This document shows, piece after piece, positions 12,047 through 32,000 of a DNA stretch of 32,000 bases. Source of the stretch: Synechococcus sp. A15-28. Its GTDB lineage: Bacteria; Cyanobacteriota; Cyanobacteriia; PCC-6307; Cyanobiaceae. The stretch spans positions 390,001-422,000 of the forward strand of contig NZ_CP047931.1 in NCBI RefSeq assembly GCF_014280175.1. Reading direction: 5' to 3'. Numbering within the stretch: the stretch's first letter is position 1; each line of letters begins with the position of its first letter. The notes under the pieces were generated by a model, which did not search any database, was not told the origin of the DNA, and saw nothing but the letters and a program-made list of their open reading frames with translations. Made by a program: the position numbers and the translations under genes.

Positions 12047-12113
12047 GAATCAATCCTAACCGGTATTACGCAAGGCTGGATTTGCAAAAGTATCAAAGGA
12101 AGAACAAGGGTAT

Positions 12114-14299: not shown

Positions 14300-14302
14300 G
14301 CT

Positions 14303-17023: not shown

Positions 17024-18017
17024 TGTCAATCAACTGCTTTGTGTTTTGGTAGGATTTAAACCACTTCAAAGATGCGAAGGCGATCAAAGATGCTAGGCCT
17101 CCAAATAACAAGATAGAAACTAGACGTTGACGAGCCTTTTTGAACAGAATGGCTTGTTCTCTTTCAACGAGAAGTGCCATATTCGCTGCTGGAATATATT
17201 GATATGCGCCAACGACCGGCTTCTGCTCATGATTCAGGTACAAATAGGTGCCTTTGCGATTACTAAGGGCATTGGTAATCCCTTCACTTTTAAGCGCAGG
17301 ATATTCAGTGGCATTATTAGGGTTATAAATTTCTGTTGTGCGACTTAAGGATGTATACGCAATCGCCAATGTCCTTTCAGGAGGGTCTAGCTCGCGAACG
17401 TCTCCAGGAGTGAACATAGACTCATAAAGTGTTTTTGGATTGACGTCAACTGCGTAATAGCCTCGACGCTTATTTGTGTTATCGCGAATCGGAAATGCCA
17501 GTGTGGTTGTGGGGCGCCCTGAAAGTGGATCTTTGAAGAATCTCAGACTGCTATTAACTGACTTTTGGGGATCAATGTACGTCGTTGTATTTTGAACAGG
17601 TTGATAGCGTCCGACTTTTTTAATATCTGTAGAAAGGGAAAAAATGGCACCAGGAGTTAGTATGGAAATACTTTCCGCAGCAATATTTTGCTGGAATATT
17701 TTGCTGGTGTCTATGTTGCCTGTGAGTTTGGTTTGAGTATTGTTCGTACCTGGACGGAAGCGACGTTTGGATGATAGAACTTTGATAGTTTGATCTTGAA
17801 ATTCTGGATCTCCAAGGTGATTGATGATCGTTGATATTAAACTCTCTTTGGCGTTCTTAAATAAATCGGCACGAGACGTCAGCACATTTTTTTGAGCTTG
17901 ATAAGCCTCACGACCCAAGTTTTGAGTCTCACCATAGTATGTGATGAGTCCGATGGACCCCGTTATAGAAAGAGAAACGATGAGAATTTCCGTGCATGAA
18001 TAATTTCGCATTTTCAT
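17013..18017 (-). CDS. Stand-alone two-TM periplasmic sensor-like (Cache/CHASE-like) protein without a cytoplasmic output domain
   Basis: The N-terminal TM is ILIVSLSITGSIGLITYY, followed by about 290 aa of extracytoplasmic sequence ending ...KGTYLYLNHEQKPVVGAYQYIPAANMALLVERE (Cache-like end pattern). The C-terminal TM is LVSILLFGGLASLIAFASL, with only about 15 cytoplasmic residues. The ATG at 18017 overlaps the SBP stop as ATGA. Confidence 0.7.
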   Translation of the reverse strand: MKMRNYSCTEILIVSLSITGSIGLITYYGETQNLGREAYQAQKNVLTSRADLFKNAKESLISTIINHLGDPEFQDQTIKVLSSKRRFRPGTNNTQTKLTGNIDTSKIFQQNIAAESISILTPGAIFSLSTDIKKVGRYQPVQNTTTYIDPQKSVNSSLRFFKDPLSGRPTTTLAFPIRDNTNKRRGYYAVDVNPKTLYESMFTPGDVRELDPPERTLAIAYTSLSRTTEIYNPNNATEYPALKSEGITNALSNRKGTYLYLNHEQKPVVGAYQYIPAANMALLVEREQAILFKKARQRLVSILLFGGLASLIAFASLKWFKSYQNTKQLIDNES

Positions 18018-19390: not shown

Positions 19391-19471
19391 GCCTGATAGG
19401 CCTAGTTTAATTATCCTAGCAATCTTTTTTGGCTTTGCAGCACGATGAGAACGTTAAAAACCTTTGAAACG

Positions 19472-20452
19472 TTACCAAGAGGTTAAGGCGATTACCCAGA
19501 TCGGAAGAGTGAAGATCAAAATGATATTGCTGATGATCAGGGATTGCACAATCAGGGCTCGATCTAGGTTGAAGTTTTCAGCCAAGACAAGCGTCGCAAA
19601 GGCGCAGGGCATTCCTGACTGAAGAACGAGAATCAACCTTTCTGGGCCCGCAAATCCAGTTGCAGTAAGTAATGCCCCTACCAGGATTGGCACGGCAATC
19701 ATCTTGATCAAGACAGCTTTCAAAGGCAGTTGGAATGAGCCGGAACCGCTGAGCTGTTCGATTCGCATTCCCATGGTGAGGAGTGCGAGCATGATTGAAG
19801 TCCAAGCGATAACGCTGAGGATGTTGCTCAGAAGATCTGGGATTTCAACCAGCTTCAGAAGAAGGCCTACGCCAAAAGCGATGAGCGATGGATTTTTATA
19901 GAGGAGTTTGCTTGTCCTGACGAGTGCGCTAAGAAAGCCATTGCTGTTATCACCACCATCCCCTCGAGTCGCAATCCAGGAGCCCAGTCCATAGCCACCT
20001 AAAATCGTCCCAAAAATATCGTATAAAACTGCGATGCCAAAGTAATTTGGGCCAAGCTGAGGTAGTAATAAGACGACTGGAAATCCAATATAACTTGTAT
20101 TACCGATATAACTGCTGAGCTGGAAGCTTCGTCGGGTATTCAATGAAATCGATTTTCTTGATCCCAGAACGTATGACGAAAAAAGCAGACCGAGGCCGAT
20201 GACCAAGCAAGCAGTGACTGGAGCTATCCAGGCATTTGCGCTTAATTCGGCGTTGCGAACGAAATTGGCAATTCCGATCGGGATGCCAACACGCAGTAGA
20301 AATTGTGCAAGGAAAGAAGGGATGCTGCGGCTGTACCGCTCTCCGGTGGCTCCTCCATAGGACACCAAGAGTTTGCTGATCAGAATTCCGCTGCCCACAG
20401 CTGCCACGATGGGCAGGTAGACAGAGGTGACAATGGAAGAGAGGTTGGTCAA
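19472..20452 (-). CDS. Auxin efflux carrier (AEC) family membrane transporter
   Basis: About 10 hydrophobic helices in two halves separated by a hydrophilic loop, with length and C-terminal pattern (VLQSGMPCAFATLVLAENFNLD) typical of Mem_trans. TTG start. Confidence 0.75.
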   Translation of the reverse strand: MTNLSSIVTSVYLPIVAAVGSGILISKLLVSYGGATGERYSRSIPSFLAQFLLRVGIPIGIANFVRNAELSANAWIAPVTACLVIGLGLLFSSYVLGSRKSISLNTRRSFQLSSYIGNTSYIGFPVVLLLPQLGPNYFGIAVLYDIFGTILGGYGLGSWIATRGDGGDNSNGFLSALVRTSKLLYKNPSLIAFGVGLLLKLVEIPDLLSNILSVIAWTSIMLALLTMGMRIEQLSGSGSFQLPLKAVLIKMIAVPILVGALLTATGFAGPERLILVLQSGMPCAFATLVLAENFNLDRALIVQSLIISNIILIFTLPIWVIALTSW

Positions 20453-20542: not shown

Positions 20543-21238
20543 TCAAGGGCGGACAAGCTGATCGATTGAAATTTCACCATAAAAAACCTTCAAGTCTTGT
20601 TCGTATCGCTGCAAGACAAGATTCTTCAGCCCTGAATCATGGAAGTATTGGCTGACATCTGTTCGGTCTTCTGCACGTCTACGGTTTTTTTGTGGAAGGT
20701 CCCCCAGCGAAGGCAGGCCTTCGCGCTGCAGTTGTTGTTGAAGGGCTTTCCAATCTTGATTCATGTGTTCAATTCTTCCGATGAATCCTGGGATAATTTG
20801 TTCGTCAAGGCAGAGGATTGATGTCTGAGGAAGTAAATGGATGTCGATCTCTTGATCAGGCGTGCTATTGACCCGCTCAAGAAACTGGGCAAATGGCATG
20901 TCGCGCCAGAGTCCCATCGCTTGCATGGGAGCGGGCACCTCGTCGAGTTCAAGGATTTTGTTGTTGTAAGCGGAAACCAGCCGGTCGAACGGATTTCGGA
21001 CAAAGCTGAAGCAGAAGTGCGTGCCACGACACATCCTTGCTGTGTGGTTGTTCACCATGCAGGTTTCCCCTTTGGTGGCTTTGCTCCAAAACGCATCCGA
21101 GGTGGTCCGCAATCCTTGCTCCGGGTTCTGCGTCAGTAGTCGGCTGAGACTGGCTTTGATCGAACTGTTGGCCACCTTCGGGACGCGTCCGTAAAGGAGA
21201 GGCAGGTCTCGGAACTGAATGAAGTGACGCTCGTTCAC
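20543..21238 (-). CDS. Carbohydrate sulfotransferase (Sulfotransfer_2-like), paralog b
   Basis: RVPKVANSSIKASL is a 5'-PSB-like element and FVRNPFDRLVSAYNNKI a 3'-PB-like element. The GTG start overlaps the upstream stop as GTGA. Paralog of 22074..22850. Confidence 0.8.
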   Translation of the reverse strand: MNERHFIQFRDLPLLYGRVPKVANSSIKASLSRLLTQNPEQGLRTTSDAFWSKATKGETCMVNNHTARMCRGTHFCFSFVRNPFDRLVSAYNNKILELDEVPAPMQAMGLWRDMPFAQFLERVNSTPDQEIDIHLLPQTSILCLDEQIIPGFIGRIEHMNQDWKALQQQLQREGLPSLGDLPQKNRRRAEDRTDVSQYFHDSGLKNLVLQRYEQDLKVFYGEISIDQLVRP

Positions 21239-22077
21239 AGCTCCCAGTAGTCGATGGGTTTACCCATGTAGGCCAGCATCTGCTCGCTGTCTGGCCGAAT
21301 GCGACGCAGAACACGGCGCTTCAACCCGTCTCTCCACTGTGGCTTTTCGACGTGACCGCGACCTTTCTCGCCGGCTTGATTTTCCCTGGGCAGCTGTCCA
21401 TTGCTATCCAGAAGCCTTTTAACCCTCGGCTTGACGCCAAGAAACCGCATCATCTGGCGTAAGGAACGCCGGGGTGAGCTCAGCAGATCTTCAAATGTCA
21501 TGCAGTGAATCTGCTCATCTGGATAGAAACGACGGAATGCCGATAGACGTTGGTAGTACATCGAACAACCCACGATGAGTCGACGCAGGTGACGGTCGCG
21601 CATGAGTTCGCTGAAATCAGCGCACTCCGGATTTCGCCCGCGGTAGTGACGCCACTGGGACACGATCCGATCCAAAGGATGGCGAACGATGTAAATCAGT
21701 TTGAGATCCGGAAGGTAGCGATGCATCAATTCCGGCGTGCTGCTGAAGGAATGCAAGCCACTGGCATACATCGTGCTGCCTTCCCCCCTGAGAAGGTGAT
21801 TCTTGCCTTTGTTGAATCTTGATGCATACCAATCCCAACCCTTTTTGTAGTAACGGCCGAAGAACTTTGGCTCTTTGGGTTTACTGATGAAAACGTCTGG
21901 ATGCTGCGGAAGGATGGTGGTCAGGGTTGTTGTGGCGGATTTAGCGGCGCCAATGATGATGAAGTTGGGCAAGGAGTCGCGATATTGATCAACGATCTCA
22001 GCATGTTGGCCGCGAATGCCCTTGCGGATCAATTTCGTTGAACACAGATCGGATGGCATGACGAGGATGTTGGTCAA
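21235..22077 (-). CDS. Sulfotransferase (Sulfotransfer_1/3-like, PAPS-dependent)
   Basis: FIIIGAAKSATTTL is the 5'-PSB loop and VRHPLDRIVSQW the 3'-PB motif. The TTG at 22077 overlaps the upstream stop as TTGA. ATG at 22059 is an alternative start. Confidence 0.8.
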   Translation of the reverse strand: MTNILVMPSDLCSTKLIRKGIRGQHAEIVDQYRDSLPNFIIIGAAKSATTTLTTILPQHPDVFISKPKEPKFFGRYYKKGWDWYASRFNKGKNHLLRGEGSTMYASGLHSFSSTPELMHRYLPDLKLIYIVRHPLDRIVSQWRHYRGRNPECADFSELMRDRHLRRLIVGCSMYYQRLSAFRRFYPDEQIHCMTFEDLLSSPRRSLRQMMRFLGVKPRVKRLLDSNGQLPRENQAGEKGRGHVEKPQWRDGLKRRVLRRIRPDSEQMLAYMGKPIDYWEL

Positions 22078-22850
22078 GCGTTGACTTGGGCTCTCTGGCG
22101 TTTCTTGGCTTTGGCCACACCCCGTTGCAAAGGGGGCAATTTGTTTAATGGCTGGCCATCGAGAAGCGTGTCAATGCTGTAGTCGCCATAGAAGCGATTG
22201 AGATCCTGCTGGTATCGCTCGATCACCATGTCAATCAGGGCTATGGAATGGAAGAGAACACGAATGTCGCTGCGCCCTTCACGACGCACATTCTTCTGCG
22301 GTATCGCACCCAGCGTTGGCAGGCCTTCCAGCTTCATTCGGCATCGTAACCGACGCCAATGGTCGGTCATGTGCTCCATTCGGCCGACGAATTTTGGCAC
22401 AAGCTTGTTGCCCGCAAGCAGCATATCGGCTTGCGGACGCACATGATTATCGATTAGTTCTGGATCTGCCTTGCAGACAATTTCGATGAATTGGTCAAAG
22501 GCCATGCCGTGATGCAGTCCCATTTTTTTCATGGGCAATGGCACATCGTCGATTTCCAGAATCTTGTTGTTGTAAGCGGCAACGATTCGGTCGAAAGGAT
22601 TGCGGACGAAGCTGAAACTGAAGTGGCTTCCGCGAAGACGTCTGGCTTGTTGAGGTGTGACGAGCTGAGTTTCACCATTGGTGTTTTCGCGCCAAAAACG
22701 GTCGGATGTGGTCTTGATTCCGCCGGTGGGCTTTTGATTCAGAAGTTTGCATAGCGTGGCCTTGATGGAGGAGTTGGCCACCTTGGGAACACGCCCGTAC
22801 AGAAGCGGGATGTCACGGAACAGGATGAAGTGTCGAGGTGATTTGCTCAT
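22074..22850 (-). CDS. Carbohydrate sulfotransferase (Sulfotransfer_2-like), paralog a
   Basis: The internal ATG at 22850 (MSKSPRHFILFRDIPLLYGRVPKVANSSIKATL) overlaps the neuB-fusion stop as ATGA. FVRNPFDRIVAAYNNKI is present. Confidence 0.8.
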   Translation of the reverse strand: MSKSPRHFILFRDIPLLYGRVPKVANSSIKATLCKLLNQKPTGGIKTTSDRFWRENTNGETQLVTPQQARRLRGSHFSFSFVRNPFDRIVAAYNNKILEIDDVPLPMKKMGLHHGMAFDQFIEIVCKADPELIDNHVRPQADMLLAGNKLVPKFVGRMEHMTDHWRRLRCRMKLEGLPTLGAIPQKNVRREGRSDIRVLFHSIALIDMVIERYQQDLNRFYGDYSIDTLLDGQPLNKLPPLQRGVAKAKKRQRAQVNA

Positions 22851-25111
22851 GCCCTCGCTGCAGCTTCCAGGCGTTCCAACGCCAGCCATGCCGCTTCGCC
22901 GCCATTTTTGTGCCCTTGCCAGATCTCGGGGATAAACGATGCCTTTGGGCAGTGTTGGTCGATCTGTTCGAACAACTGCACCCAATCAATGTCTCCATCC
23001 AAAATCTGCAGGCCCTCGCCATCCACATCCTTGGCATCCGCCAGATGCAGGTGAGCTGTGAAGGGGAGGATCTGATCGAGGAACTGACGAAACGGAATGT
23101 GGAGATGGTTGCAAGCCAGTTTTGAGTGGGAGACATCCAGGCAGACCCGCATGTCCTGCTCTTCACAGAACTGCCGGATGAAATCCGTGTCCACAAACAG
23201 GTTGTGGAAGCGTTGCCCGCCGAAGTGCCAGGGGAAGGGGGGCATCGTCTGGGGAATGATCTCCACCTCGCCTGCGGTGTTGATCTTCTTCAGGCTTGTA
23301 ATCAGTCGCTCCCGCAGCGGTTTCCGTTCGCTGCGGTTGAGGTGATGGTGTTCGGAAAAACCGCCGACGTTGGTCACCAGCAACACCGGGTCTGAGCACT
23401 GGAAGCGATTTCTCAGGTCCCGCGAAATGTCGATCACCCGCTGCAGTTCTGCAATGGAGTGATTGCGATAGCTGGAATCCTCCGTGCAGAGGTCCAGAGT
23501 GTGGTCTCCCGCGAACAATTCGGGGGCATGAATCACCAGCCCAATGTTCTGCCGAACCGGTAGGACTTGATTGAGGTCAACCTCCAGATCCTTGTAACTG
23601 AGGTGAATCTCCACCAGATCCAGATTACTCACCTCGGAAAACACCTTGATGTCGTGGTACCGGACAGGTAAACCAAACGGCTGGTTGAACTGATACCTGC
23701 GCGGGGTGGCCGCAGGTGTTTCCAGATCGGATGGGAAGAACACCTCCCCTTGGCTCTTGGCCACCGGCAGGCGACGACCGATCAGATCCTTGAGCCGGTT
23801 GGGTTGCAGACCCTGGCCTGGGCTCTGGATGCGCACCATCGCTTCGGTGATCTCTGTTCCGGCTGGTACATCGCAGGCCGCCACAAGGCTCTTGGCCAAC
23901 ACCTCACGGTTCATCATTTCGCCCTGGCTGATGCTGCGCTCTCCGCCCTGGCCCATGGACTCCTCCACGCGGCGGATGCCCTGCATCATCTGAGCGAATT
24001 CATCCGGCAGCAGGCTCACCTTGTGATCGTTGCCTTCCATGCCGCGATCCACGGTGATGTGTTTCTCGATCACCGCCGCCCCCATGGCGACCGCCGCAAT
24101 CGGCACCTCAATTCCTCGTTCGTGACCGGAATAGCCCACGGGAGCATCGGCCAGTTCCCGCAGCCGCTCCAGATAGCGCAGGTTCACGTCCTTGAACGGC
24201 GTGGGATAAGTGGAGTTGCAGTGCAGCAGAACGTAGTTCGCCCCTTCCTGCTGTAGGTGGCGAATGCCAGAGCGGATTTCCAGTTCGCTGGCCATGCCGG
24301 TGGAGCAGATCAGCGGTTTCCCCGTCGCGGCCAATTGGCTGATCAGGGCGTGGTTGGTGAAATCGGCGGAGGCCACCTTGAAGCCCTCCATGCCCCAGCC
24401 ATTCAATTTCTCCAGACTGGTTTCATCCCAGGGGGTGCAGAGCGGCACCAGACCCTTGGACGCTGCGTAGTCAAAACAGCGGAATAACTCCTCGTCGCTC
24501 AGCTGGAAGCGCTCCAGCAGATCCAGGGTGTACTGGGTCCCCAGATCGGAGGCCATGTCATTGCTGTCGCCAGCATTGCTGTACAGATTGGACATGTCCC
24601 GCATCTGGAACTTGGCGCAGTCAGCGCCGGCGGCATGGGCGGCATCGATCAGCTCAAGGGCGATGTTGATGTCGCCGTTGTGGTTGTTGCCAATTTCGGC
24701 GATCACGAAGCTCGGTTCGCCGTCTCCGATGCGACGGCTGCCCAGTTGCAGGCCATCGGTGGCGGGCAGGGCCACCGCCACGATGCGGCCGTGGCTGTCC
24801 AGCAGCGGCAGGGCGATGATGCGCGAGGTCAGCAGACCAGCCAATTCCGCGGGAGCTGTTCCCTCCGCAGCACTGCGGCAATCGGGGTTCATCGCCGCCG
24901 TCACAGGACGGTTCAGATCGATGTCACCGCAACTGGCGATCCAGCGCCGGAAATCGCCATCGGTGAGAACACCCTGCAGGATCCCGGATTCCGAGACCAC
25001 AAAAATCAACCGCGATTGGTTGGCGGTGATTTTGCTCAGGGCAGAAAGAATCGTGTCCTCGGCAAAAACAACGAACTGGGTGAAGTTCCTCTCGATCTGG
25101 ATGCCCTTCAC
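22847..25111 (-). CDS. neuB: Fusion protein: CBS pair, N-acetylneuraminate (nonulosonate) synthase NeuB, SAF domain and xylose-isomerase-like TIM barrel
   Basis: The CBS element is ILQGVLTDGDFRRW...GRIVAVA. The NeuB signature is PSFVIAEIGNNHNGDINIALELIDAAHAAGADCAKFQ ... GYSGHE. A SAF-like segment is VAACDVPAGTEITEAMV. The C-terminal roughly 270 aa (IHLSYKD...VIHAPE...LDVSHSKLA...HLHLADA) looks like a sugar-phosphate isomerase/epimerase TIM barrel. GTG start. Confidence 0.85.
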   Translation of the reverse strand: MKGIQIERNFTQFVVFAEDTILSALSKITANQSRLIFVVSESGILQGVLTDGDFRRWIASCGDIDLNRPVTAAMNPDCRSAAEGTAPAELAGLLTSRIIALPLLDSHGRIVAVALPATDGLQLGSRRIGDGEPSFVIAEIGNNHNGDINIALELIDAAHAAGADCAKFQMRDMSNLYSNAGDSNDMASDLGTQYTLDLLERFQLSDEELFRCFDYAASKGLVPLCTPWDETSLEKLNGWGMEGFKVASADFTNHALISQLAATGKPLICSTGMASELEIRSGIRHLQQEGANYVLLHCNSTYPTPFKDVNLRYLERLRELADAPVGYSGHERGIEVPIAAVAMGAAVIEKHITVDRGMEGNDHKVSLLPDEFAQMMQGIRRVEESMGQGGERSISQGEMMNREVLAKSLVAACDVPAGTEITEAMVRIQSPGQGLQPNRLKDLIGRRLPVAKSQGEVFFPSDLETPAATPRRYQFNQPFGLPVRYHDIKVFSEVSNLDLVEIHLSYKDLEVDLNQVLPVRQNIGLVIHAPELFAGDHTLDLCTEDSSYRNHSIAELQRVIDISRDLRNRFQCSDPVLLVTNVGGFSEHHHLNRSERKPLRERLITSLKKINTAGEVEIIPQTMPPFPWHFGGQRFHNLFVDTDFIRQFCEEQDMRVCLDVSHSKLACNHLHIPFRQFLDQILPFTAHLHLADAKDVDGEGLQILDGDIDWVQLFEQIDQHCPKASFIPEIWQGHKNGGEAAWLALERLEAAARA

Positions 25112-25149
25112 AGTTCGCCTCGCAGGTGCCTAAGCAGAACCTGGAGACA

Positions 25150-26463
25150 CTACCCCACGTTCCTGTAGGTGATGCTCAGAAAAAGGCGCCTGATGATCCG
25201 GTTGCGTGTCTGAACAGCGCCCAATCTGCGGGCCACATTGCGATGGCTGGGTCGCATCAGGGTCCCAAGTTGCAACAGGCTTTCTGCTTCTTTCCAGTTC
25301 CTCTCTTGAATAGCACGTTCTGCATCGCGACGTAGCTGGGTGAAGCTGAGATTGGCGTTACTCAGATAGCCGGATTTTGCTTGGAGGCGATCCGGAGGGC
25401 AGGCACGCAGTTGCAGCAGAGCCTCGATCAATCGATCCGGCTCAAGCTTGGTGCCGTAGCCCATCCATGCCAGCCAGTCGGGATCCGGTTGTGGAAGCTC
25501 CTCGTCCAGAACGTCGAGATCCTCCATGGCATCCAGAGGTCTCCAGACCCCCGATCCGGCGAACACATGGCTGCCGTTGCTGGGATTGATCCCGAAGTCG
25601 GCCATCGCCAGGGGCCGGCAGCCGAAATCGAGAGCATCGAAGAAGGCGGTGGAGGAGATGGTGGCCATCAACCGGGCCTGACGCAGCAGGACCGGTAAGG
25701 GGCGGTAATCCAGCTTCAGGTTCACCGGGGCATGGCCAAGGGTCTGTTTCAGGGTGGTACTGATGTGGTCATCGATGCTGTGAAAGGTTTCCTCTCCCGG
25801 GGCGATTCGCGGCTTGATCAACACCTCCCAGTTCGGAGAGCGTCGGGCCAGATCCGCCAGGATCCGAACCATCTCGGCGCGATCGACCGCTGTTGAGGGC
25901 ATCACCACCTGTTCAGCGAAGATCAGCTGCTTGCGGCGCTGGTCACGTCCCTTGGGGTGCTGATCAGGGGCTGTGTTGCGGTGCAAACCGGTCAGAACCG
26001 CGCGCTGATCAGCAAATGGCGTGCCTTCCAGCATGCGTTCCAGGGCGTCACGGTCCCGTGGACCACTGAGGCCGATCAGGTCGTACCCCAGGCGCCAGCT
26101 GACGCCCTCGACGAACTTTTCCAGCACAACACCGTTGAATCCGCAGAAGAGCAAGGGCCTCTCGTTGCTGGGGAGCAATCCCAAGGCCAGGCGGAAATCG
26201 CTGATCTTGCTGCCGGTGAGGTAAACCCCGATGGCATCGAATTGGCGCAGCTTGTGGTGAGTCAGCAACTGCCCCATGTCCAGTCGCCAAAGCTCACCGA
26301 GGGCAGCGGCGCGCGTCAGAATTGCCTCAGGCGTTCCCTCCCTTGGGATGGCATTGATTGTGACCTGAACGTTGCGTTCTGAAGGGAAGCGGCACAACGC
26401 TTCACAGGCCAACAGTTGGCTGTCGCTGTCGCCGATCAGCAGCAGTTTGAACGGTTGATTCAT
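25150..26463 (-). CDS. Uncharacterised GT-B/Capsule_synth-like protein, tandem paralog 1
   Basis: Homologous to the two upstream genes, for example LLRQARLMATISSTAFFDALDFGCRPLAMADFG versus LLRQCGCAITVSSTAALEAMALGISTRIVGDLG. The ATG overlaps the upstream stop as ATGA. Confidence 0.7.
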   Translation of the reverse strand: MNQPFKLLLIGDSDSQLLACEALCRFPSERNVQVTINAIPREGTPEAILTRAAALGELWRLDMGQLLTHHKLRQFDAIGVYLTGSKISDFRLALGLLPSNERPLLFCGFNGVVLEKFVEGVSWRLGYDLIGLSGPRDRDALERMLEGTPFADQRAVLTGLHRNTAPDQHPKGRDQRRKQLIFAEQVVMPSTAVDRAEMVRILADLARRSPNWEVLIKPRIAPGEETFHSIDDHISTTLKQTLGHAPVNLKLDYRPLPVLLRQARLMATISSTAFFDALDFGCRPLAMADFGINPSNGSHVFAGSGVWRPLDAMEDLDVLDEELPQPDPDWLAWMGYGTKLEPDRLIEALLQLRACPPDRLQAKSGYLSNANLSFTQLRRDAERAIQERNWKEAESLLQLGTLMRPSHRNVARRLGAVQTRNRIIRRLFLSITYRNVG

Positions 26464-27515
26464 CGGATCAGCGCCTCCAGGCGGCGGATCAGGCGCTTCG
26501 CCCCGTCATGCACCCCCCAGCCCGTGGACTGAAGCCAGAATGCGTTCACCGGGGGCAACTCCAGCAGCTGATCCAGCCGGTCGATGGCCTGCAATCGATG
26601 CATGCAGCCGCTGCCGAAGAACGCGGTGGTGCCTTGGTCGGTGTGAATGCCGTAGTCACCGATCAACAGGGTAGGTCGCCCCCAGGCCATGGCGGCCAGG
26701 GTCCAGGGTGAGCTGACGCTGAGGCAGGCGCTGCAGCTGGCCAGTTGGCTTAACAGCTGACCTGGCGCACCGAACACCAGGTTGTCGGGGAAGGACCAGT
26801 CGTCGGGTTCGAATTTGGCGATCCAGGGCTGGCCACGCTCCCAGGACTGGTCGCGTTGGATGACGATGGACCAGTCCGGCGAGGTTTCGGCCCAACGGAT
26901 CAGTTGCCTGAGGAGCTGTGCCTTGGCTCCAACCTGGATGGGAATGCTCTCCTGCGCCAAAGCGAGCAGCGTGTAAGGCGGTTTTGGTGTGCCGCCGCTC
27001 AGGGCCCCGAGAGGGGGACGTTCTGGAAGGAACCACAGCCCCATGGACTCGATCTCTGGAGTCCCAGAGGTTGTTGGCCAAAACTGCGTGATCGCTTCGA
27101 GCTCCCGTCGTTGACGATCCCCTGGCACCACCAGGAGGTCACAGCAGTGGCGATCACTGAGCTCTTGCACCAGCTGGTCGCCAAGGGACGCTTGCAGGGG
27201 CCCGCTGAACACCACTGCCGGGGGTTCCCCACGTTGGCGGGCGAGCTCGCGGTGGGCATGGGTGAAGCGCTGCAAGTAGTCGCTGCGATGGATGAATACC
27301 CCCACGGCGCTGGCGGAGTTCAGCAGTTCATGCCCCAGCAGATCCATTAGGGCTAAAGGGATCTGGGGGGTCACGGCTGGCAGCGGACTGTCTCGAAGTG
27401 AGGACAGCGCTGGACCAACGGTCAGACAGGCATGACCGCCCTGCCGTAGCTGCTGCGCCAACAGCTGGCAGGCGAAAGCGCTGCGGTCGTCATCACTGAC
27501 CAAAAGGATCGTCAT
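26460..27515 (-). CDS. Uncharacterised GT-B/Capsule_synth-like protein, tandem paralog 2
   Basis: The internal ATG at 27515 (MTILLVSDDDRS...) overlaps the upstream stop as ATGA. The conserved SACLSVSSPWTLAAMAWGRPTLLIGDYG block is present. Confidence 0.7.
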   Translation of the reverse strand: MTILLVSDDDRSAFACQLLAQQLRQGGHACLTVGPALSSLRDSPLPAVTPQIPLALMDLLGHELLNSASAVGVFIHRSDYLQRFTHAHRELARQRGEPPAVVFSGPLQASLGDQLVQELSDRHCCDLLVVPGDRQRRELEAITQFWPTTSGTPEIESMGLWFLPERPPLGALSGGTPKPPYTLLALAQESIPIQVGAKAQLLRQLIRWAETSPDWSIVIQRDQSWERGQPWIAKFEPDDWSFPDNLVFGAPGQLLSQLASCSACLSVSSPWTLAAMAWGRPTLLIGDYGIHTDQGTTAFFGSGCMHRLQAIDRLDQLLELPPVNAFWLQSTGWGVHDGAKRLIRRLEALIR

Positions 27516-28819
27516 CGCTCCCGCAACCACCTGGACAACCAACCGAAGCCCACCAGCCCGTCGCGGAGGCGGCGTAGAGCGGTACGGGTTTTGTGCCGTT
27601 TGCGCTGACTGGAGCGCGCCCCGGCGCTGCTCAGCATGCGTCGGCCACCATGGCGAAGGGCGTAGGTCTGCCACTGGCGACTACCCCAGCTGCCTGGACC
27701 CAGGCCCTCGGTGGGCAACGGGGAACGCTCCTGATGGAGTCGCTCCAACAGGGCGGTGAGGAAGGTTTCGCGGCCCTGGGGCTGGAGGCCACTGCGTTGA
27801 AGCCATTCCACCCTGTGGCTTGGGGTGAACGGATCACGGGTGATAGAGGCAAAGTCCGCCACGGCACCCGAATCGGCGAAAAAGTGATTACCAAGGGTCT
27901 CGGTGACGCCGAGATCGCCAACGATGCGGGTACTGATGCCCAGGGCCATGGCTTCAAGGGCTGCGGTGGAGGACACGGTGATGGCGCAGCCGCACTGCCG
28001 TAGCAGGCGGGTGGCTGGTTTGAAGCTGAGCTGCAAGTTGGGCACCGTTTCGCTCATGCGTTCGATCACGCCGGCCATCTCACCGTGGCGCCGGTGCAAG
28101 GTGCTTTCGATGCTGGAGGTGCGCGGCTTGAAAATCACCGGATGATCAGGCCAGGCTTCCGCCAGGGCCTTGAGCTGCTTGCAGATGTAGCGCCGTTGCA
28201 GCGGGTGGGCAGGTATCGAGGGCTGCTCGAAGAACACGATCGACGGTTGGTCCGGTGCGGCTCGATGGGGGTCGGCATTCCAGAGCAAAGGCAGGCCCGT
28301 CACCACAGCGTTGTCGCTGGACAGCCCCAAGGCATGCCGGCCGAGCTGATAGGTGCTGAGGTCCTGTTCACTGTTGAGGCAAAGAAGATCGGCGCCGGAA
28401 CGGTCCAGCATTCCCTCGAGGGCAAAGCGAAACAGGATCCCCGGATAGGCGCTGACCAGAACAGGCCGATCCGTGCGGCCACTCCATTCCTTGGCGAGCA
28501 TCAAAAGTGCATCACGGCTGCGCAGGCCGTCCAACCCCAGAATCAGCACATCCACATCGCCGGCCATGGCGGCCGTCAGGCTTCGGAAGTCACCCCAAGC
28601 ACCCTTTTTCACCGCGGTGCGGCGGTCGGTGCGGTGGATTTCCAGCCTCTGGCGGCGAGACAGGGCCCGGTTCGAAACCTGCAACAGATGCAATGTGGTT
28701 TCGGCGCCCTCTTTGCGGCAGGCGGCAAGCAGGGTCATAGCCACCTTGCCGAAGGAATCGAAGCAGGCGACGGCTGCCACTTTTCGGCCAGAAAGGCGCT
28801 TGTCGGCAGCGGGCGCCAT
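27512..28819 (-). CDS. Uncharacterised GT-B/Capsule_synth-like protein, tandem paralog 3
   Basis: ATG at 28819 is preceded by GGAG and lies 27 nt after the neuA stop. The GTG at 28879 from the track would overlap neuA by 34 nt. Contains HPVIFKPRTSS... and ITVSSTAALEAMALG. Confidence 0.7.
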   Translation of the reverse strand: MAPAADKRLSGRKVAAVACFDSFGKVAMTLLAACRKEGAETTLHLLQVSNRALSRRQRLEIHRTDRRTAVKKGAWGDFRSLTAAMAGDVDVLILGLDGLRSRDALLMLAKEWSGRTDRPVLVSAYPGILFRFALEGMLDRSGADLLCLNSEQDLSTYQLGRHALGLSSDNAVVTGLPLLWNADPHRAAPDQPSIVFFEQPSIPAHPLQRRYICKQLKALAEAWPDHPVIFKPRTSSIESTLHRRHGEMAGVIERMSETVPNLQLSFKPATRLLRQCGCAITVSSTAALEAMALGISTRIVGDLGVTETLGNHFFADSGAVADFASITRDPFTPSHRVEWLQRSGLQPQGRETFLTALLERLHQERSPLPTEGLGPGSWGSRQWQTYALRHGGRRMLSSAGARSSQRKRHKTRTALRRLRDGLVGFGWLSRWLRER

Positions 28820-28845
28820 CGTCGGGCTCCGGGATTCCGGCAAAA

Positions 28846-29526
28846 CTAACCGGGGGTGAGAGCTGCAAGGCTGCGACACAGGGCCAGATCAGCCGGTGTG
28901 TCGATCTCCGGCCCCGAGTCCTCTATCACCACCGGTTGCCAGGGGGCACAGAAGCGGCTGCCTTCGGCGCGGAAACAGTCAATGCTCATGGCGTAGATCG
29001 CACCGGTTTCAAGAAAGGCTGGCTCCAGGTCCTGCCGGCGCTGGCGCGGTTGCTGGGGGTCGTGGTTGATCCCGCAGCCGTCATGGCGCCAGAGGAAGCC
29101 ATGCCAAGGGGCCACCGCAAAGCTGCTGTTGATGCCCGGGGTCGCCAGAGCCGCCAACACCTTGTCGATCTGTGCCCCGGTGGTGAAGGGGGAGGTGCAC
29201 TGCAGGAACACCAGCTGCTGGGGGAGTGCTCCCTGCTGTTCCAGAGTCTCCAGGGCATGGAGAAGGGCTGATTCGGAGCTGGCGGTGTCTTCAGCGATGG
29301 CTGCCGGACGGCGTACCACCTCGGCCCCATGGGTCCGGGCCTCCTCGGCGATGGCGTCAGCATCGGTGCTGACCACCACCCGCTCCACCCTGCGGCTGGC
29401 CAGGGCCGCCTGCACGCAGCGCGCTACCAGGGAGAAACCACCAACCATCTGCAGGTTCTTGCCAGGAATGCCCTTGGAGCCGCCCCGCGCTGGAATCAAA
29501 GCCAGGGCTCCAGGGGACGCGGTCAT
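28846..29526 (-). CDS. neuA: CMP-N-acylneuraminate (nonulosonate) cytidylyltransferase
   Basis: The internal ATG at 29526 gives MTASPGALALIPARGGSKGIPGKN, the CTP_transf_3 P-loop-type motif. The length of about 226 aa is typical. The upstream in-frame Pro/Ala-rich extension is an artefact of GC-rich DNA. Confidence 0.85.
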   Translation of the reverse strand: MTASPGALALIPARGGSKGIPGKNLQMVGGFSLVARCVQAALASRRVERVVVSTDADAIAEEARTHGAEVVRRPAAIAEDTASSESALLHALETLEQQGALPQQLVFLQCTSPFTTGAQIDKVLAALATPGINSSFAVAPWHGFLWRHDGCGINHDPQQPRQRRQDLEPAFLETGAIYAMSIDCFRAEGSRFCAPWQPVVIEDSGPEIDTPADLALCRSLAALTPG

Positions 29527-29558
29527 CGGAGAGGATTTAGTTCGTTCCCTCCTACCCG

Positions 29559-31544
29559 ATGATTCAGCGCTTCGGGGTGCCGGAGACCGGTCTGCTGGCT
29601 CACCGGACCGTGCCGGCGTTGCTGGCTCCGGCCCAGTTGCTGCGCGGACGTCGCAGGGATGTGGAGGCGTTGCTGGCCTGGGGGCGTCGACCCAGTGCCC
29701 AGCGGGTGGAGCGACTGGGGCGTCGTTGGCAGCTGCCGGTGTGGCATCTGGAGGATGGTCTGTTGCGATCATTGGCCAAGGGCCGCCAGCATCCGCCGCT
29801 GGCGCTGTTGGTGGATGACCTGGGGGTCCACTTCGATGCCAGCCAGCCCAGCCGGATGGAGCAGCGGATCCAGCGACCGCTGACCCCTGCACAACACAGC
29901 CGTGCCTGTGAACTTCAGCAGCGGTGGTGCGCTCAGCGGTTGAGCAAGCTCAACCCAGCCCGAGAATCACCGGCTCCAGCCGAGCCGTTTGTGCTGGTGG
30001 TGGACCAGTCCGCCGGAGACCTGTCCATCGGCCTTGGGCAGGCCGGGCCGGAGAGCTTCCGGCGCATGTTGCAGGAGGCGCTGCGGGATCAGACGGACTG
30101 TCTGGTGGTGGTGAAGGTGCACCCGGATGTGATCCGGGGCCGCGCCCGGGGCCATTTCCGCCGTCAGGATCTGCAGCACCCGCGCATCCGCCTCTGCGCT
30201 GACGGATTGCACCCTGCCGCCCTGTTAGAGCAGGCCCAGGCGGTGTATGTGGTGACCTCCCAGATGGGGTTTGAGGCGCTGTTGTGGGGACGGACCGTCC
30301 ACTGCTTCGGCATGCCTTTTTATGCCGGGTGGGGACTCACCGTGGATCGTTTGCCGGCTCCGGCCCGTCGGGGAGCGTCGGTGCCGTTGGCGGCGGTGGT
30401 GCATGCGGCGCTGGTGGAGGGCACCCGCTGCGTGGACCCCCATCGGCATCAACCCTGTCAGATCGAGACGCTGATGGACGCCATCGGCCTGCAACGTCGG
30501 CAGCAGGGGGCGGATCCCCTGCGGGTGCAGGCCTTTGGCTTCACTCCATGGAAGCAACGCAGCCTCAAGCGCTTTCTGGCCGGCAGTGAGCTGCGCTTTC
30601 GCCTGCCGCGGGCGCTGCCGGGGCCGCGGGCGGAGGCCGTGGCGGTGTGGGGCCGGCGGGCTCGACCGCGTCTGCTGGCGACGGCGCGCCGTCGGGGGCT
30701 GCCGCTGCTGCATGTGGAGGACGGTTTCCTGCGCTCGGTGGGCCTGGGGGCCGATCTGATCGACCCCATCTCCTGGGTGGTGGACCGCCGCGGCATGTAT
30801 TACGACGCCACGGAGGCCAGCGATCTGGAGCAGCGGCTGGCCACAGGAATCTGGAGTGAGCCGCAGTTGCAGCGGGCCGAGGCCTTGCGCCAGCAGCTGG
30901 TGGCGCAGGCCATCACCAAATACAACCTCCCAGGGGGCGGATGGCAGCGCCCCGACGCTGCCAGGCGGGTGGTGCTGGTGGTGGGGCAGGTGGAAAGCGA
31001 CGCTTCCATCCGCTATGGCGCTCCGGGGCACTCCAGCAACCTGGCACTGCTGCAGGCGGTGCGTGCGGCGGAACCGGAAGCGTTCCTGGTGTACAAACCC
31101 CATCCCGACGTGGTGGCGGGTCTCTGCCGCTCCGGTGATGGGGAGCAGCGGGCGGCCCAGGTATGCGACTGCTTGCTGCGCGATGGCTCGATCCATGCCC
31201 TGTTTGAGCAGGTGGATGCCCTGCATGTGCTCACCTCCCTGGCAGGGTTTGAGGCGCTGTTGCGGGGAGTGGAGGTGCATTGCTGGGGACTGCCCTTTTA
31301 TGCGGGTTGGGGGCTGACCCAGGATCGGTTGTCCTCGCCCCGGCGGGGCCGGTCGCTGCCTTTGGCGGCGTTGGTGCATGCCGCCTTGATTGATTACCCC
31401 CGCTACGTCAGCCGCCGCAGCGGTTGGTTCATCACTCCAGAGCAAGCCATTGAGGAGCTAGTGGCATGGCGGGATGCACCTCCAGCCCGCCGCACCCTGG
31501 TGCAGGCCCTGTTCCGACACTGGGGGCGTCTGTTCAATCGTTAG
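29559..31544 (+). CDS. kpsC: KpsC-like capsule polysaccharide protein (two Capsule_synth modules; beta-Kdo transferase family)
   Basis: The architecture is duplicated. The N half has HLEDGLLRS ... VVVKVHPDV ... VTSQMGFEALLWGRTVHCFGMPFYAGWGLT. The C half has HVEDGFLRS ... LVYKPHPDV ... LTSLAGFEALLRGVEVHCWGLPFYAGWGLT. The length of 661 aa is typical of KpsC. Confidence 0.85.
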   Translation: MIQRFGVPETGLLAHRTVPALLAPAQLLRGRRRDVEALLAWGRRPSAQRVERLGRRWQLPVWHLEDGLLRSLAKGRQHPPLALLVDDLGVHFDASQPSRMEQRIQRPLTPAQHSRACELQQRWCAQRLSKLNPARESPAPAEPFVLVVDQSAGDLSIGLGQAGPESFRRMLQEALRDQTDCLVVVKVHPDVIRGRARGHFRRQDLQHPRIRLCADGLHPAALLEQAQAVYVVTSQMGFEALLWGRTVHCFGMPFYAGWGLTVDRLPAPARRGASVPLAAVVHAALVEGTRCVDPHRHQPCQIETLMDAIGLQRRQQGADPLRVQAFGFTPWKQRSLKRFLAGSELRFRLPRALPGPRAEAVAVWGRRARPRLLATARRRGLPLLHVEDGFLRSVGLGADLIDPISWVVDRRGMYYDATEASDLEQRLATGIWSEPQLQRAEALRQQLVAQAITKYNLPGGGWQRPDAARRVVLVVGQVESDASIRYGAPGHSSNLALLQAVRAAEPEAFLVYKPHPDVVAGLCRSGDGEQRAAQVCDCLLRDGSIHALFEQVDALHVLTSLAGFEALLRGVEVHCWGLPFYAGWGLTQDRLSSPRRGRSLPLAALVHAALIDYPRYVSRRSGWFITPEQAIEELVAWRDAPPARRTLVQALFRHWGRLFNR

Positions 31545-31758
31545 ATGTTGTACTTAGTGCGACTATTTATAACGAATTTTTATAGGGTCTATTAGTTAGT
31601 TGATCGTCGACAAGGTTTTCTTCTTCTGCTTGTGGTGCTCTTTTGTTGTGAATTGTTGGCGTCGGGGTGTCTCGCGTCATTCAGATTTGCGGAAATGTCT
31701 GTCAATGTTGCTGCTTTAGGCGTGGCGAATGGCTAGAGGGGATATGCATCGAGATTGT

Positions 31759-31944
31759 TTAGTTGGTGCCAGAGAAATTTCTTTCAAGGAATCTGCGGAA
31801 TAATTTCCACTCTTCTTCTGTGAAAAAGGTGTGGCATTTGATGGCAAGATCAAGGCCACGTTCATTTAGTCTGGGGTTTGGGTTTTTGTTGCTGATTTTG
31901 AGTCTTGGGTCAGTGGATAGATTTTTGGCTTGTTCTGGTAACAT
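31759..31944 (-). CDS. Hypothetical protein (61 aa)
   Basis: ATG ORF in the AT-rich segment that begins right after kpsC. No motif recognised. Confidence 0.3.
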   Translation of the reverse strand: MLPEQAKNLSTDPRLKISNKNPNPRLNERGLDLAIKCHTFFTEEEWKLFRRFLERNFSGTN

Positions 31945-32000
31945 TGCATTAAGTAAGTTCCTAAAATACTGTTGTGGCTGTTGGTTATTGCTTACAAGCT

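What the first reader, a model, noticed from the sequence alone, without database searches (positions are those of the whole stretch)
20543..31544. Surface-polysaccharide cluster combining nonulosonic-acid synthesis, KpsC and three sulfotransferases
Seen in the sequence:
- kpsC lies on the plus strand and is divergent from a minus-strand chain. The chain runs neuA, three paralogs, the CBS-NeuB-TIM fusion, then sulfotransferases of type 2, type 1/3 and type 2.
- Five of the seven junctions in the chain are 4-nt start/stop overlaps (ATGA, TTGA or GTGA). These are at 27512, 26460, 22847, 22074 and 21235. The other two are short gaps.

Established knowledge: NeuB and NeuA make and activate sialic-acid-type sugars. 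KpsC extends the poly-Kdo lipid linker of group-2-type capsules. PAPS-dependent sulfotransferases O-sulfate glycans.

Inference: the cluster specifies a lipid-anchored, sulfated, nonulosonate-containing capsule or EPS. That is an animal-glycan-like surface chemistry not established for marine picocyanobacteria, and it would be relevant to grazing and phage adsorption. No neuC, kpsS, kpsMT or kpsDE genes are visible here.
Basis: partly seen in the sequence, partly recalled or inferred. Interest (0 to 1): 0.7.

Follow-up and report, generated by a model that had tools for sequence, protein, structure and literature searches.

The report
Capsule gene cluster in marine Synechococcus
This is half of a capsule-type surface-sugar gene cluster of an open-ocean Synechococcus. 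It probably makes a sulfated, acidic, lipid-anchored polymer, but the cluster is already listed in the literature and its chemistry has never been tested.

Summary
All nine genes, their order, their strands and the five 4-nt start/stop overlaps are in the sequence.

The window matches Synechococcus sp. A15-28 (clade III).

HMM searches keep the family calls:
- KpsC has two GT107 modules, each with a QxxxD and a KxHP motif.
- The cytidylyltransferase is NeuA-like.
- The synthase is a CBS-NeuB-SAF-TIM fusion.
- Three sulfotransferases are present.
- The "three paralogs" are DUF6716 proteins with a GT-B fold.

NeuB and NeuA both score below the Neu5Ac and Pse equivalog cut-offs, and no neuC is present. 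The sugar is therefore an unidentified ulosonic acid, not shown to be sialic acid.

The "missing" genes lie just outside the window. kpsS, fused to an acyltransferase, starts about 1.36 kb after kpsC. Relatives continue with fabF2, ACP, an OlsB-like acyltransferase and kpsD.

DUF6716 also sits beside neuB/neuA and kps genes in Aeromonas and Sinorhizobium, which supports a role as the nonulosonate transferase.

Doré et al. (2020, 2023) already catalogued this locus as a kps-like capsule cluster, including neuA, neuB and a sulfotransferase. It is a plausible known candidate, biochemically untested, and of moderate interest.

The parts
20543..21238 (-). Sulfotransferase, type 2 (231 aa), last gene of the chain
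   Evidence: PF03567 at 124.9 bits. The 5'-PSB motif (PKVANSS) and 3'-PB motif (RNPFDRLVS) are present. 55.8% identical to the other type-2 copy.
21235..22077 (-). Sulfotransferase, type 1/3 (274-280 aa; start at 22077 TTG or 22059 ATG)
   Evidence: PF00685 at 69.3 bits and PF13469 at 69.4 bits. Motifs GAAKSATTT and RHPLDRIVS are present. Gene callers chose the ATG start.
22074..22850 (-). Sulfotransferase, type 2 (258 aa from the ATGA overlap; callers used a start 39 nt upstream)
   Evidence: PF03567 at 116.2 bits. The 5'-PSB motif is present. The 3'-PB motif reads RNPFDRIVA, with Ala in place of the usual Ser (sequence; motif scan).
22847..25111 (-). Four-domain ulosonic-acid synthase (754 aa): KpsF/GutQ-type CBS pair, NeuB PEP-condensing barrel, SAF domain, and a metal-dependent sugar isomerase/epimerase-type TIM barrel
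   Evidence: Pfam: NeuB 268.7, AP_endonuc_2 58.7, SAF 36.4, CBS 27.6 bits. NCBIfam NeuB_NnaB 312.9, below the 399.65 cut-off. Roughly equidistant from solved NeuB, SpsE and PseI structures. The TIM-domain model (pLDDT 85.6) is closest to ketose 3-epimerases, UlaE and endonuclease IV. 166 residues are at least 98% invariant across 55 orthologs from several phyla.
25150..26463 (-). DUF6716 paralog c (437 aa), putative CMP-ulosonate glycosyltransferase
   Evidence: PF20471 at 171.5 bits, plus a weak Capsule_synth hit (E 3.5e-4). Motifs Q-x-x-x-P, K-P-R and ISST.
26460..27515 (-). DUF6716 paralog b (351 aa), the most divergent copy
   Evidence: PF20471 at 72.1 bits. Orthologs are only 28-76% identical across picocyanobacteria. 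It has Q-R-D where the other two copies have K-P-R.
27512..28819 (-). DUF6716 paralog a (435 aa), putative CMP-ulosonate glycosyltransferase
   Evidence: PF20471 at 205.3 bits. 100% identical to a protein of Synechococcus sp. A15-28. The model (pLDDT 84.7) has a GT-B fold. Remote profile similarity to KpsC-N and KpsS (hhalign probability 60-65%) and to WbbB GT99.
28846..29526 (-). NeuA-like CMP-ulosonate synthetase (226 aa; the 348-aa ORF extension is not used)
   Evidence: PF02348 at 77.7 bits. Best NCBIfam hit is PseF at 120, below the 205.7 cut-off; KdsB models score 53 or less. Called as 226 aa on identical contigs. Adjacent to the fusion synthase in 47 of 54 non-picocyanobacterial loci.
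29527..29558 (.). 32-bp divergent intergenic region between neuA and kpsC
   Evidence: Read directly from the sequence. The same 32-bp spacing occurs in two other marine strains. No promoter-like match was found.
29559..31544 (+). KpsC (661 aa): two GT107 retaining ulosonate-transferase modules
   Evidence: Capsule_synth at 263 bits. Aligns to the solved E. coli KpsC N-domain (6mgc, 208.6 bits) and a KpsC C-domain (6mgd, 215.4 bits). The Asp changed to Asn in entry 8fuw aligns with D154 of the window protein. QxxxD at 150 and 477; KxHP at 186 and 513.
31545..32000 (.). Start of a ~1.3-kb low-GC (42%) insert that separates kpsC from the kpsS-acyltransferase gene lying beyond the window
   Evidence: On contig L087, whose KpsC translates exactly to the window protein, the 1428 bp after kpsC match window 31545-32000 at 98.7%. 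They hold two small ORFs with no family match. The last ~70 bp match the 5' end of kpsS in L007, L089 and other loci.

Best explanation
The region is the biosynthetic half of a group-2-like (ABC-transporter-dependent, kps-type) capsule locus of Synechococcus sp. A15-28.

Proposed mechanism:
1. The four-domain NeuB fusion condenses PEP with an aldose to give a 2-keto-3-deoxy ulosonic acid. Its TIM domain may supply or modify the sugar.
2. NeuA activates the product to the CMP-sugar.
3. KpsS and KpsC build a short beta-ulosonate linker on a lipid acceptor. KpsS lies just outside the window and is fused to a PlsC-type acyltransferase. The lipid is made or remodelled by the adjacent ACP, KAS II and OlsB-like acyltransferase.
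4. The three DUF6716 GT-B enzymes extend the serotype-specific chain from the CMP-ulosonate.
5. The three PAPS-type sulfotransferases O-sulfate it.
6. KpsMT, KpsE and KpsD export it.

Shown: gene content, domain families, motifs, synteny and cross-phylum association.
Inferred: every substrate, the sugar identity, the lipid, sulfation of this particular polymer, and export.
For: - Family calls are confirmed by Pfam, NCBIfam and PDB sequence searches.
- KpsC keeps both catalytic motifs in both modules.
- The whole block is syntenic next to purB in marine subcluster 5.1 and in Cyanobium 5.2. The order is kpsD, OlsB-like acyltransferase, ACP, fabF2, kpsS-acyltransferase and kpsC, then divergently neuA, three DUF6716 genes, the NeuB fusion and the sulfotransferases.
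- kpsS is present about 1.36 kb beyond kpsC in the window's own population. The protein scores 300.9 bits on the KpsS model and carries a PlsC domain.
- DUF6716 lies inside a classical kpsMTED-neuBCA-kpsCS locus in Aeromonas hydrophila. In Sinorhizobium fredii it lies directly after neuB-neuA, beside two Capsule_synth genes and a KpsM-like gene.
- DUF6716 shares the Q and SS motifs with GT99/GT107, and there is weak but reciprocal profile similarity.
- Sulfation machinery travels with relatives of the system: ATP sulfurylase next to the fusion gene in L048, and CysD, CysNC and CysQ next to DUF6716 in Cohaesibacter.
- The sulfotransferases keep PAPS-binding motifs.
- Doré et al. reached the same capsule reading from comparative genomics and metagenomics.
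Against: - No chemistry exists for any strain.
- The NeuB and NeuA domains fail the equivalog cut-offs, so the sugar is unknown.
- No neuC, phosphatase or Kdo-supply gene is in the cluster.
- Cyanobacterial LPS lacks Kdo (PMC3087551), so the donor for KpsS and KpsC is uncertain.
- DUF6716 lacks the Asp nucleophile and the His-Pro motif of GT99/GT107. Its best solved-structure matches are UDP-GlcNAc 2-epimerases, at TM about 0.5.
- kpsM/T/E were not seen in any locus I fetched. In M16CYN, a marine MAG (L093) and Cyanobium usitatum, only kpsD lies between purB and the lipid genes.
- Outside picocyanobacteria the neuA-fusion pair sits in Wzm/Wzt O-antigen-type loci, not kps loci.
Confidence: 0.65

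Rival explanations
1. Kdo-free variant. KpsS and KpsC do not use CMP-Kdo. They polymerise the cluster's own ulosonate directly on the lipid, giving a sulfated poly-ulosonate glycolipid. The DUF6716 proteins only elaborate or branch it.
For: - The only PEP-condensing enzyme and the only cytidylyltransferase in the conserved block are the fusion and NeuA.
- Cyanobacteria lack WaaA, and their LPS lacks Kdo.
- Locus L048 carries the fusion, NeuA, KpsC, KpsS-acyltransferase, two sulfotransferases and ATP sulfurylase, but no DUF6716.
- A KpsS homolog that transfers pseudaminic acid is cited in PMC12887879.
Against: - The window KpsC is very close to the E. coli and T. dismutans Kdo transferases: 208-215 bits per module, with the same motifs.
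- Whether kdsA and kdsB exist elsewhere in the genome could not be checked.
Confidence: 0.2
2. Not a capsule. The ulosonate decorates or caps LPS O-antigen, or a surface protein, as nonulosonic acids do on flagellins and O-antigens elsewhere.
For: In 47 of 54 non-picocyanobacterial loci the neuA-fusion pair is adjacent. It often lies with Wzm, with Wzt carrying a carbohydrate-binding C-domain, with methyltransferases and with GT2/GT4 genes, which is the pattern of ABC-type O-antigen loci with a terminal cap.
Against: In picocyanobacteria the pair is always flanked by kpsC, kpsS, kpsD and lipid-anchor genes. No Wzm, Wzt or ligase gene is in the block.
Confidence: 0.1
3. The DUF6716 proteins are not glycosyltransferases. 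They are nucleotide-sugar epimerase-like enzymes that replace the missing NeuC and supply the aldose substrate.
For: The top 37 solved-structure matches of the DUF6716 model are UDP-sugar 2-epimerases, mostly UDP-GlcNAc 2-epimerases, with E about 1e-9. The cluster has no neuC.
Against: - TM is only 0.44-0.56 at 10-16% identity, which is generic GT-B similarity.
- Sequence profiles point to Capsule_synth and GT99, not Epimerase_2.
- In Aeromonas, DUF6716 coexists with a genuine Epimerase_2 NeuC.
- Three ancient paralogs fit several linkages better than one epimerisation.
Confidence: 0.05

Closest known systems
Synechococcus 'Kps cluster' / Syn-eCAG_008 and 009, genomic island Syn_GI125 (Doré et al. 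2020 PMC7522525; Doré et al. 2023 PMC10119275)
   Same: It is the same locus. The published gene list is kpsD, acyl-CoA N-acyltransferase, ACP, fabF2, kpsS, kpsC, neuA, three unnamed genes, neuB and a carbohydrate sulfotransferase, followed by DUF1997, kpsM, kpsE and kpsT. It is reported for clades III, WPC1, 5.3 and part of clade II, and is enriched in Fe-replete, N- and P-poor waters.
   Different: [quoted passage not shown] I found no dissection of the four-domain NeuB fusion, the DUF6716 identity of the unnamed genes, the KpsS-acyltransferase fusion or the sulfation aspect. No experiments are reported.
E. coli group 2 capsule loci (K1, K5): kpsFEDUCS, region 2, kpsMT
   Same: KpsC has two GT107 modules with the same motifs. 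KpsS and a KpsD-type exporter are present. The layout places a serotype-specific block between conserved kps genes.
   Different: - No kpsF or kpsU.
- No neuC, neuS (GT38), neuD or neuE.
- KpsS is fused to a PlsC-type acyltransferase and accompanied by ACP, KAS II and an OlsB-like enzyme.
- Three sulfotransferases are present.
- NeuB carries extra CBS and TIM domains.
Aeromonas hydrophila kps locus with neuB-neuC-neuA and DUF6716 (locus L096)
   Same: DUF6716 sits in the serotype-specific region between kpsMTED plus neuBCA and kpsC-kpsS.
   Different: That locus has a standard two-domain NeuB and a true NeuC, one DUF6716 copy, and no sulfotransferase in the 21 kb seen.
Sinorhizobium K-antigen (rkp) capsule loci (locus L095; rkp biology from my own knowledge)
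   Same: The order is neuB, then a cytidylyltransferase, then DUF6716, beside Capsule_synth genes and a KpsM-like permease. From memory, the rkp-1 region encodes fatty-acid-synthase-like proteins thought to make a dedicated lipid carrier. That would parallel the ACP, KAS II and acyltransferase genes here.
   Different: The Capsule_synth proteins are single-module, and there are no sulfotransferases in view. The link to rkp gene names was not tested here.
Synechan, the sulfated exopolysaccharide of Synechocystis PCC 6803 (xss cluster; from my own knowledge, not checked here)
   Same: A cyanobacterial surface polysaccharide whose cluster encodes dedicated sulfotransferases.
   Different: From memory it is Wzx/Wzy-dependent, with no ulosonic-acid synthase and no KpsC or KpsS.

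Membership tests
Group 2/3 kps-type (ABC-transporter-dependent) capsule locus | KpsC with two GT107 modules, each carrying a QxxxD nucleophile motif and a K/RxHP CMP-binding motif | tested here: met
   Capsule_synth at 263 bits. Aligns to solved KpsC N- and C-domains at 208.6 and 215.4 bits. QxxxD at 150 and 477; KxHP at 186 and 513.
Group 2/3 kps-type (ABC-transporter-dependent) capsule locus | KpsS, the initiating transferase | tested here: met
   Not in the window. The 5' end of kpsS appears about 1.36 kb after kpsC on a contig whose KpsC is identical to the window's. Orthologs score 300.9 bits on NF050054 KpsS (below the 600 cut-off, because the protein is a fusion) and 190 bits on Capsule_synth.
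Group 2/3 kps-type (ABC-transporter-dependent) capsule locus | KpsD-type outer-membrane export protein | tested here: met
   A Poly_export/SLBB gene lies at the end of the block in M16CYN, a marine MAG and Cyanobium usitatum. It was not seen for the window strain itself.
Group 2/3 kps-type (ABC-transporter-dependent) capsule locus | KpsM/KpsT ABC transporter and KpsE | not testable with these tools
   These genes are absent from every locus fetched, and the A15-28 genome could not be retrieved. Doré et al. list kpsM, kpsE and kpsT in the same island.
Group 2/3 kps-type (ABC-transporter-dependent) capsule locus | Supply of CMP-Kdo for the linker (KpsF/KpsU or KdsABCD) | tested here: inconclusive
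   There is no SIS-domain isomerase, KdsA or KdsB in the conserved block. NeuA scores 53 bits or less on KdsB models. The rest of the genome could not be searched.
N-acetylneuraminate synthase NeuB (equivalog TIGR03569) | Score at or above the curated equivalog cut-off | tested here: not met
   312.9 bits against a cut-off of 399.65. PseI scores 230.5 against 340.25. The Pfam NeuB and SAF domains are met.
E. coli K1-type polysialic acid pathway | NeuC (hydrolysing UDP-GlcNAc 2-epimerase), NeuS (GT38 polysialyltransferase) and NeuD/NeuE | tested here: not met
   No Epimerase_2 or other such domain occurs in any gene of 20543-31544, nor in the syntenic blocks of relatives.
CMP-nonulosonate synthetase (NeuA/PseF/LegF) | CTP_transf_3 fold and an equivalog-level score | tested here: inconclusive
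   PF02348 at 77.7 bits is met. The best equivalog, PseF, scores 120 against a cut-off of 205.7, so it is not met.
PAPS-dependent carbohydrate sulfotransferases | Sulfotransferase domain above cut-off, with 5'-PSB and 3'-PB motifs | tested here: met
   All three score above the Pfam cut-offs. The 5'-PSB motif is in all three. The 3'-PB motif with Ser is in two; the copy at 22074-22850 has Ala at that Ser.
Retaining beta-Kdo transferases GT99/GT107 (as a home for DUF6716) | QxxxD Asp nucleophile and K/RxHP motif | tested here: not met
   The family consensus is Q-x-x-x-P and K-P-R, from 176 sequences. Only remote similarity is seen in the C-terminal half: hhalign probability 42-65% and WbbB at E 0.75. 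A GT-B fold is predicted.

The most novel reading that the evidence does not exclude
Warm-water, nutrient-poor Synechococcus clades may carry a phosphorus-free, Kdo-free version of the group-2 capsule pathway.
- An aminolipid-type anchor would be built by the OlsB-like N-acyltransferase, the dedicated ACP and KAS II, and the PlsC domain fused to KpsS.
- KpsS and KpsC would polymerise a previously undescribed ulosonic acid on that anchor. The sugar would be made from a central sugar by the widespread four-domain CBS-NeuB-SAF-TIM enzyme.
- DUF6716 would be a new family of CMP-ulosonate glycosyltransferases that use a catalytic arrangement different from GT99/GT107.
- The polymer would be heavily sulfated.
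Probability: 0.15. Interest if true: 0.8.

Novelty: already known. Interest (0 to 1): 0.4.

Why it matters
If the product is confirmed, some of the most abundant marine phototrophs would carry a sulfated, ulosonic-acid capsule.
- According to Doré et al. 2023, these populations live in Fe-replete, N- and P-poor waters.
- Such a layer would bear on phage adsorption, grazing, cell aggregation, and sulfur and carbon export.

The analysis also gives three testable leads of wider reach:
- a four-domain NeuB enzyme conserved from cyanobacteria to Proteobacteria and Firmicutes, with an unknown product;
- DUF6716 as the missing nonulosonate transferase of several capsule loci;
- a possible non-phospholipid capsule anchor.

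Tried and rejected
Led nowhere:
- A literature search for DUF6716 found 0 papers.
- The search on NeuB, xylose-isomerase-like and CBS returned only noise.
- The searches on Synechococcus with nonulosonic acid or neuB found nothing specific.
- Snyder et al. 2009, on Synechococcus LPS, is not held.
- The A15-28 genome record could not be fetched, although protein P0121 is from it. Presence of kdsA/kdsB and kpsMTE in that strain therefore stays unchecked.
- Promoter and terminator scans were at chance level.
- No tRNA gene is in the window.

Considered and rejected:
- K1-like polysialic acid: no neuC or neuS, and NeuB is below the equivalog cut-off.
- DUF6716 as a NeuC substitute: only generic GT-B similarity, and it coexists with a true NeuC in Aeromonas.
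- A strain-specific horizontally acquired island: the core block is syntenic next to purB in subclusters 5.1 and 5.2. Only the sulfotransferase end is variable.
- The Mem_trans, solute-binding-protein and cyclase genes at 14897-20452 as part of the system: they are conserved only in the same population.

Full report
**Observation**

- kpsC lies at 29559-31544 on the plus strand.
- The minus-strand chain runs, in order:
  - a NeuA-like cytidylyltransferase (28846-29526);
  - three paralogs (27512-28819, 26460-27515, 25150-26463);
  - a 754-aa CBS-NeuB-SAF-TIM fusion (22847-25111);
  - sulfotransferases of type 2, type 1/3 and type 2 (22074-22850, 21235-22077, 20543-21238).

The five 4-nt overlaps are in the sequence: GTGA, TTGA, and ATGA three times.
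- Three coincide with independent gene calls on identical metagenome contigs.
- The two around the middle sulfotransferases depend on the choice of start codon.
- The other two junctions are gaps of 38 and 26 nt.

**Source and conservation**

One paralog is 100% identical to a protein of Synechococcus sp. A15-28. Doré et al. 2020 treat this strain as clade III. Contigs encoding an identical fusion protein occur in BATS, Tara and other ocean metagenomes.

The block from kpsC to the sulfotransferases is conserved in marine subcluster 5.1 and in Cyanobium-type 5.2 genomes.
- Each of the three paralogs has its own ortholog in these genomes, so the triplication is old.
- The number of sulfotransferases varies from one to three.
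- The sulfotransferases are the least conserved genes. Against the nearest species representative, the type 1/3 enzyme is 64% identical while the NeuB fusion is 92% identical.

**What lies just outside the window**

Relatives continue beyond kpsC with:
- a 664-677-aa protein made of a KpsS module and a PlsC-type acyltransferase domain. It scores 190 bits on Capsule_synth and 300.9 bits on the KpsS model NF050054. An H-x4-D motif is visible in the sequence printed;
- a KAS II (fabF2);
- an ACP;
- an Acetyltransf_5 protein that matches the OlsB-like half of OlsF;
- a KpsD-type Poly_export gene, followed by the core gene purB.

In the window's own population, kpsS is displaced by a 1.3-kb insert of 42% GC that carries two small ORFs. 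The 5' end of kpsS reappears about 1.36 kb after the kpsC stop.

**KpsC**

Both halves align to solved KpsC domains: E. coli N-domain at 208.6 bits and a C-domain at 215.4 bits.
- The Asp that is changed to Asn in PDB entry 8fuw is conserved here.
- QxxxD and KxHP motifs occur in both modules. They correspond to the motifs described for GT99/GT107 in PMC12887879.
- Membership of the KpsC family is solid. Use of Kdo is not shown.
- Cyanobacteria lack WaaA and their LPS lacks Kdo (PMC3087551).
- Pereira et al. already noted the odd, confined distribution of KpsS/C, KpsU and KpsF in the phylum (PMC4594306).
- No Kdo-supply gene is in the conserved block.

**The synthase and the cytidylyltransferase**

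- The NeuB domain is unmistakable at 268.7 bits. It misses the Neu5Ac-synthase equivalog cut-off (312.9 against 399.65) and scores lower still on PseI.
- It is about equally distant from solved NeuB, SpsE and PseI structures.
- NeuA is closest to PseF, also below cut-off, and is far from KdsB.
- The N-terminal CBS pair is of the KpsF/GutQ kind.
- The C-terminal domain folds with pLDDT 85.6 as a metal-dependent TIM barrel. It is closest to ketose 3-epimerases, UlaE and endonuclease IV.

The full four-domain protein is widespread. It occurs in filamentous and unicellular cyanobacteria, Alpha-, Beta-, Gamma- and Deltaproteobacteria, Thalassobacillus and a spirochaete.
- 166 residues are at least 98% invariant across all four domains.
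- Outside picocyanobacteria, its only constant neighbour is the NeuA-like gene, adjacent in 47 of 54 loci.
- It often lies with Wzm, with Wzt carrying a carbohydrate-binding domain, with methyltransferases and with GT2/GT4 genes.
- Several of those loci also hold a second, ordinary neuB-neuA pair, so the fusion presumably makes something different.
- No NeuC, aminotransferase or dehydratase is a constant partner. I infer a non-amino ulosonic acid, Kdn-like or new, but the sugar identity is open.

**The three paralogs**

They belong to PF20471 (DUF6716, 'putative glycosyltransferase'), a family with no literature.
- The family has about 964 clusters at 50% identity in a 1.8-billion-protein library.
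- The model (pLDDT 84.7) has a GT-B fold.
- The best solved matches are UDP-GlcNAc 2-epimerases, at TM about 0.5 and 10-16% identity, which I read as generic GT-B similarity.
- Sequence evidence instead links the C-terminal half to CMP-ulosonate transferases:
  - reciprocal weak Pfam hits with Capsule_synth;
  - WbbB GT99 as the only PDB sequence hit;
  - hhalign probability of 42-65% against KpsC and KpsS.
- The family keeps the Gln and the Ser-Ser motif. It has Pro where GT99/GT107 have the Asp nucleophile, and K-P-R in place of K-x-H-P. It is therefore not a member of those families.

The strongest functional evidence is genomic context.
- In Aeromonas hydrophila, DUF6716 lies between kpsMTED-neuB-neuC-neuA and kpsC-kpsS.
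- In Sinorhizobium fredii, it directly follows neuB and a cytidylyltransferase, beside two Capsule_synth genes and a KpsM-like gene.
- In Cohaesibacter, two copies sit next to CysD, CysNC and CysQ, the PAPS-supply genes.

I conclude that DUF6716 is most likely the serotype-specific nonulosonate transferase or polymerase.

**Sulfation**

- All three sulfotransferases exceed the Pfam cut-offs and carry the 5'-PSB motif. Two carry a canonical 3'-PB motif.
- A related locus (L048) lacks DUF6716. It has ATP sulfurylase directly upstream of the fusion gene, followed by two sulfotransferases, neuA, kpsC, kpsS-acyltransferase and fabF2.
- This suggests the sulfate goes onto the ulosonate-containing chain itself.

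**Comparison with the literature**

Doré et al. 2020 describe a 12-gene 'Kps cluster' shared by clades III and WPC1, likened to the E. coli K1 genes.

Doré et al. 2023 define Syn-eCAG_008/009 in island Syn_GI125.
- The gene list is kpsD, acyl-CoA N-acyltransferase, ACP, fabF2, kpsS, kpsC, neuA, three unnamed genes, neuB and a carbohydrate sulfotransferase, then DUF1997, kpsM, kpsE and kpsT.
- They call it a capsule locus most similar to E. coli groups 2 and 3.
- They report it enriched in Fe-replete, N- and P-poor waters.

The locus and its capsule reading are therefore already published. Neither term search found the domain-level detail reported here, and neither paper reports chemistry.

**Verdict**

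A kps-type, probably lipid-anchored and sulfated, ulosonate-containing surface polymer is the best reading (confidence about 0.65). 'Sialic-acid-type' and 'poly-Kdo linker' are unproven, and the novelty claim does not hold at the gene level.
- Interest is moderate. The system is real, abundant in the ocean and testable, but already catalogued.

Noticed in passing
window 31545-32000, continued on L087 6481-7908: A 1.3-kb insert of 42% GC lies between kpsC and kpsS. It carries two small ORFs (108 and 88 aa) with no family match. It is absent from the nearest species representative, where kpsS follows kpsC directly.
   Followed up: partly
window 20543-31544: GC content climbs steadily along the cluster, from about 48% at the last sulfotransferase to about 70% in kpsC. 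The low-GC sulfotransferase end is also the least conserved between strains (64-75% identity against 92% for NeuB).
   Followed up: partly
window 29527-29558: Only 32 bp separate the divergent start codons of neuA and kpsC. The same spacing is seen in two other marine strains. No promoter-like site fits, so transcription must start inside the neighbouring genes or rely on unusual signals.
   Followed up: no
window 28846-29892 (minus strand): The longest neuA ORF has a 122-residue Pro/Ala-rich N-terminal extension that overlaps the start of kpsC. Gene callers and orthologs use the internal ATG at 29526. The high GC content also creates many long spurious ORFs on both strands here.
   Followed up: yes
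window 1-14500: This is a low-GC, gene-poor, island-like stretch. It holds a serralysin-like metalloprotease (10471-11562), a 'sporadic carbohydrate cluster' 2OG-Fe(II) oxygenase (8757-9413), a short-chain dehydrogenase (12114-12974) and a high-GC 397-aa ORF with no family match (13106-14299). No tRNA gene is present.
   Followed up: partly
window 14897-20452: Directly after the sulfotransferases come a Mem_trans permease, a solute-binding protein, a Cache-like protein and an adenylate/guanylate cyclase. They are co-linear on all identical metagenome contigs but are not found next to the cluster in other strains.
   Followed up: partly
L029-L086 (genome-contig loci): The four-domain CBS-NeuB-SAF-TIM protein and an adjacent NeuA-like gene form a two-gene module spread across many phyla. 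It often lies beside Wzm/Wzt, a Methyltransf_23 gene and a TylF-like O-methyltransferase. This suggests a methylated ulosonate cap on O-antigens.
   Followed up: partly
L048 (contig binned as Mesorhizobium carmichaelinearum MAG): The contig carries the picocyanobacterial-type block at 59-66% identity, with ATP sulfurylase and no DUF6716. It is either a mis-binned contig or a transfer to another lineage.
   Followed up: no
L092 2727-7233, L093, L094: An OlsB-like N-acyltransferase plus a PlsC-type acyltransferase fused to KpsS, with a dedicated ACP and KAS II, mirror the two-step ornithine-lipid pathway. This hints that the capsule anchor may be an aminolipid rather than phosphatidylglycerol.
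   Followed up: partly
L097 6238-11260 and 15398-16444 (Cohaesibacter): Two DUF6716 genes lie next to cysD, cysNC and cysQ among many transposases. This is a second link between the family and sulfation.
   Followed up: no
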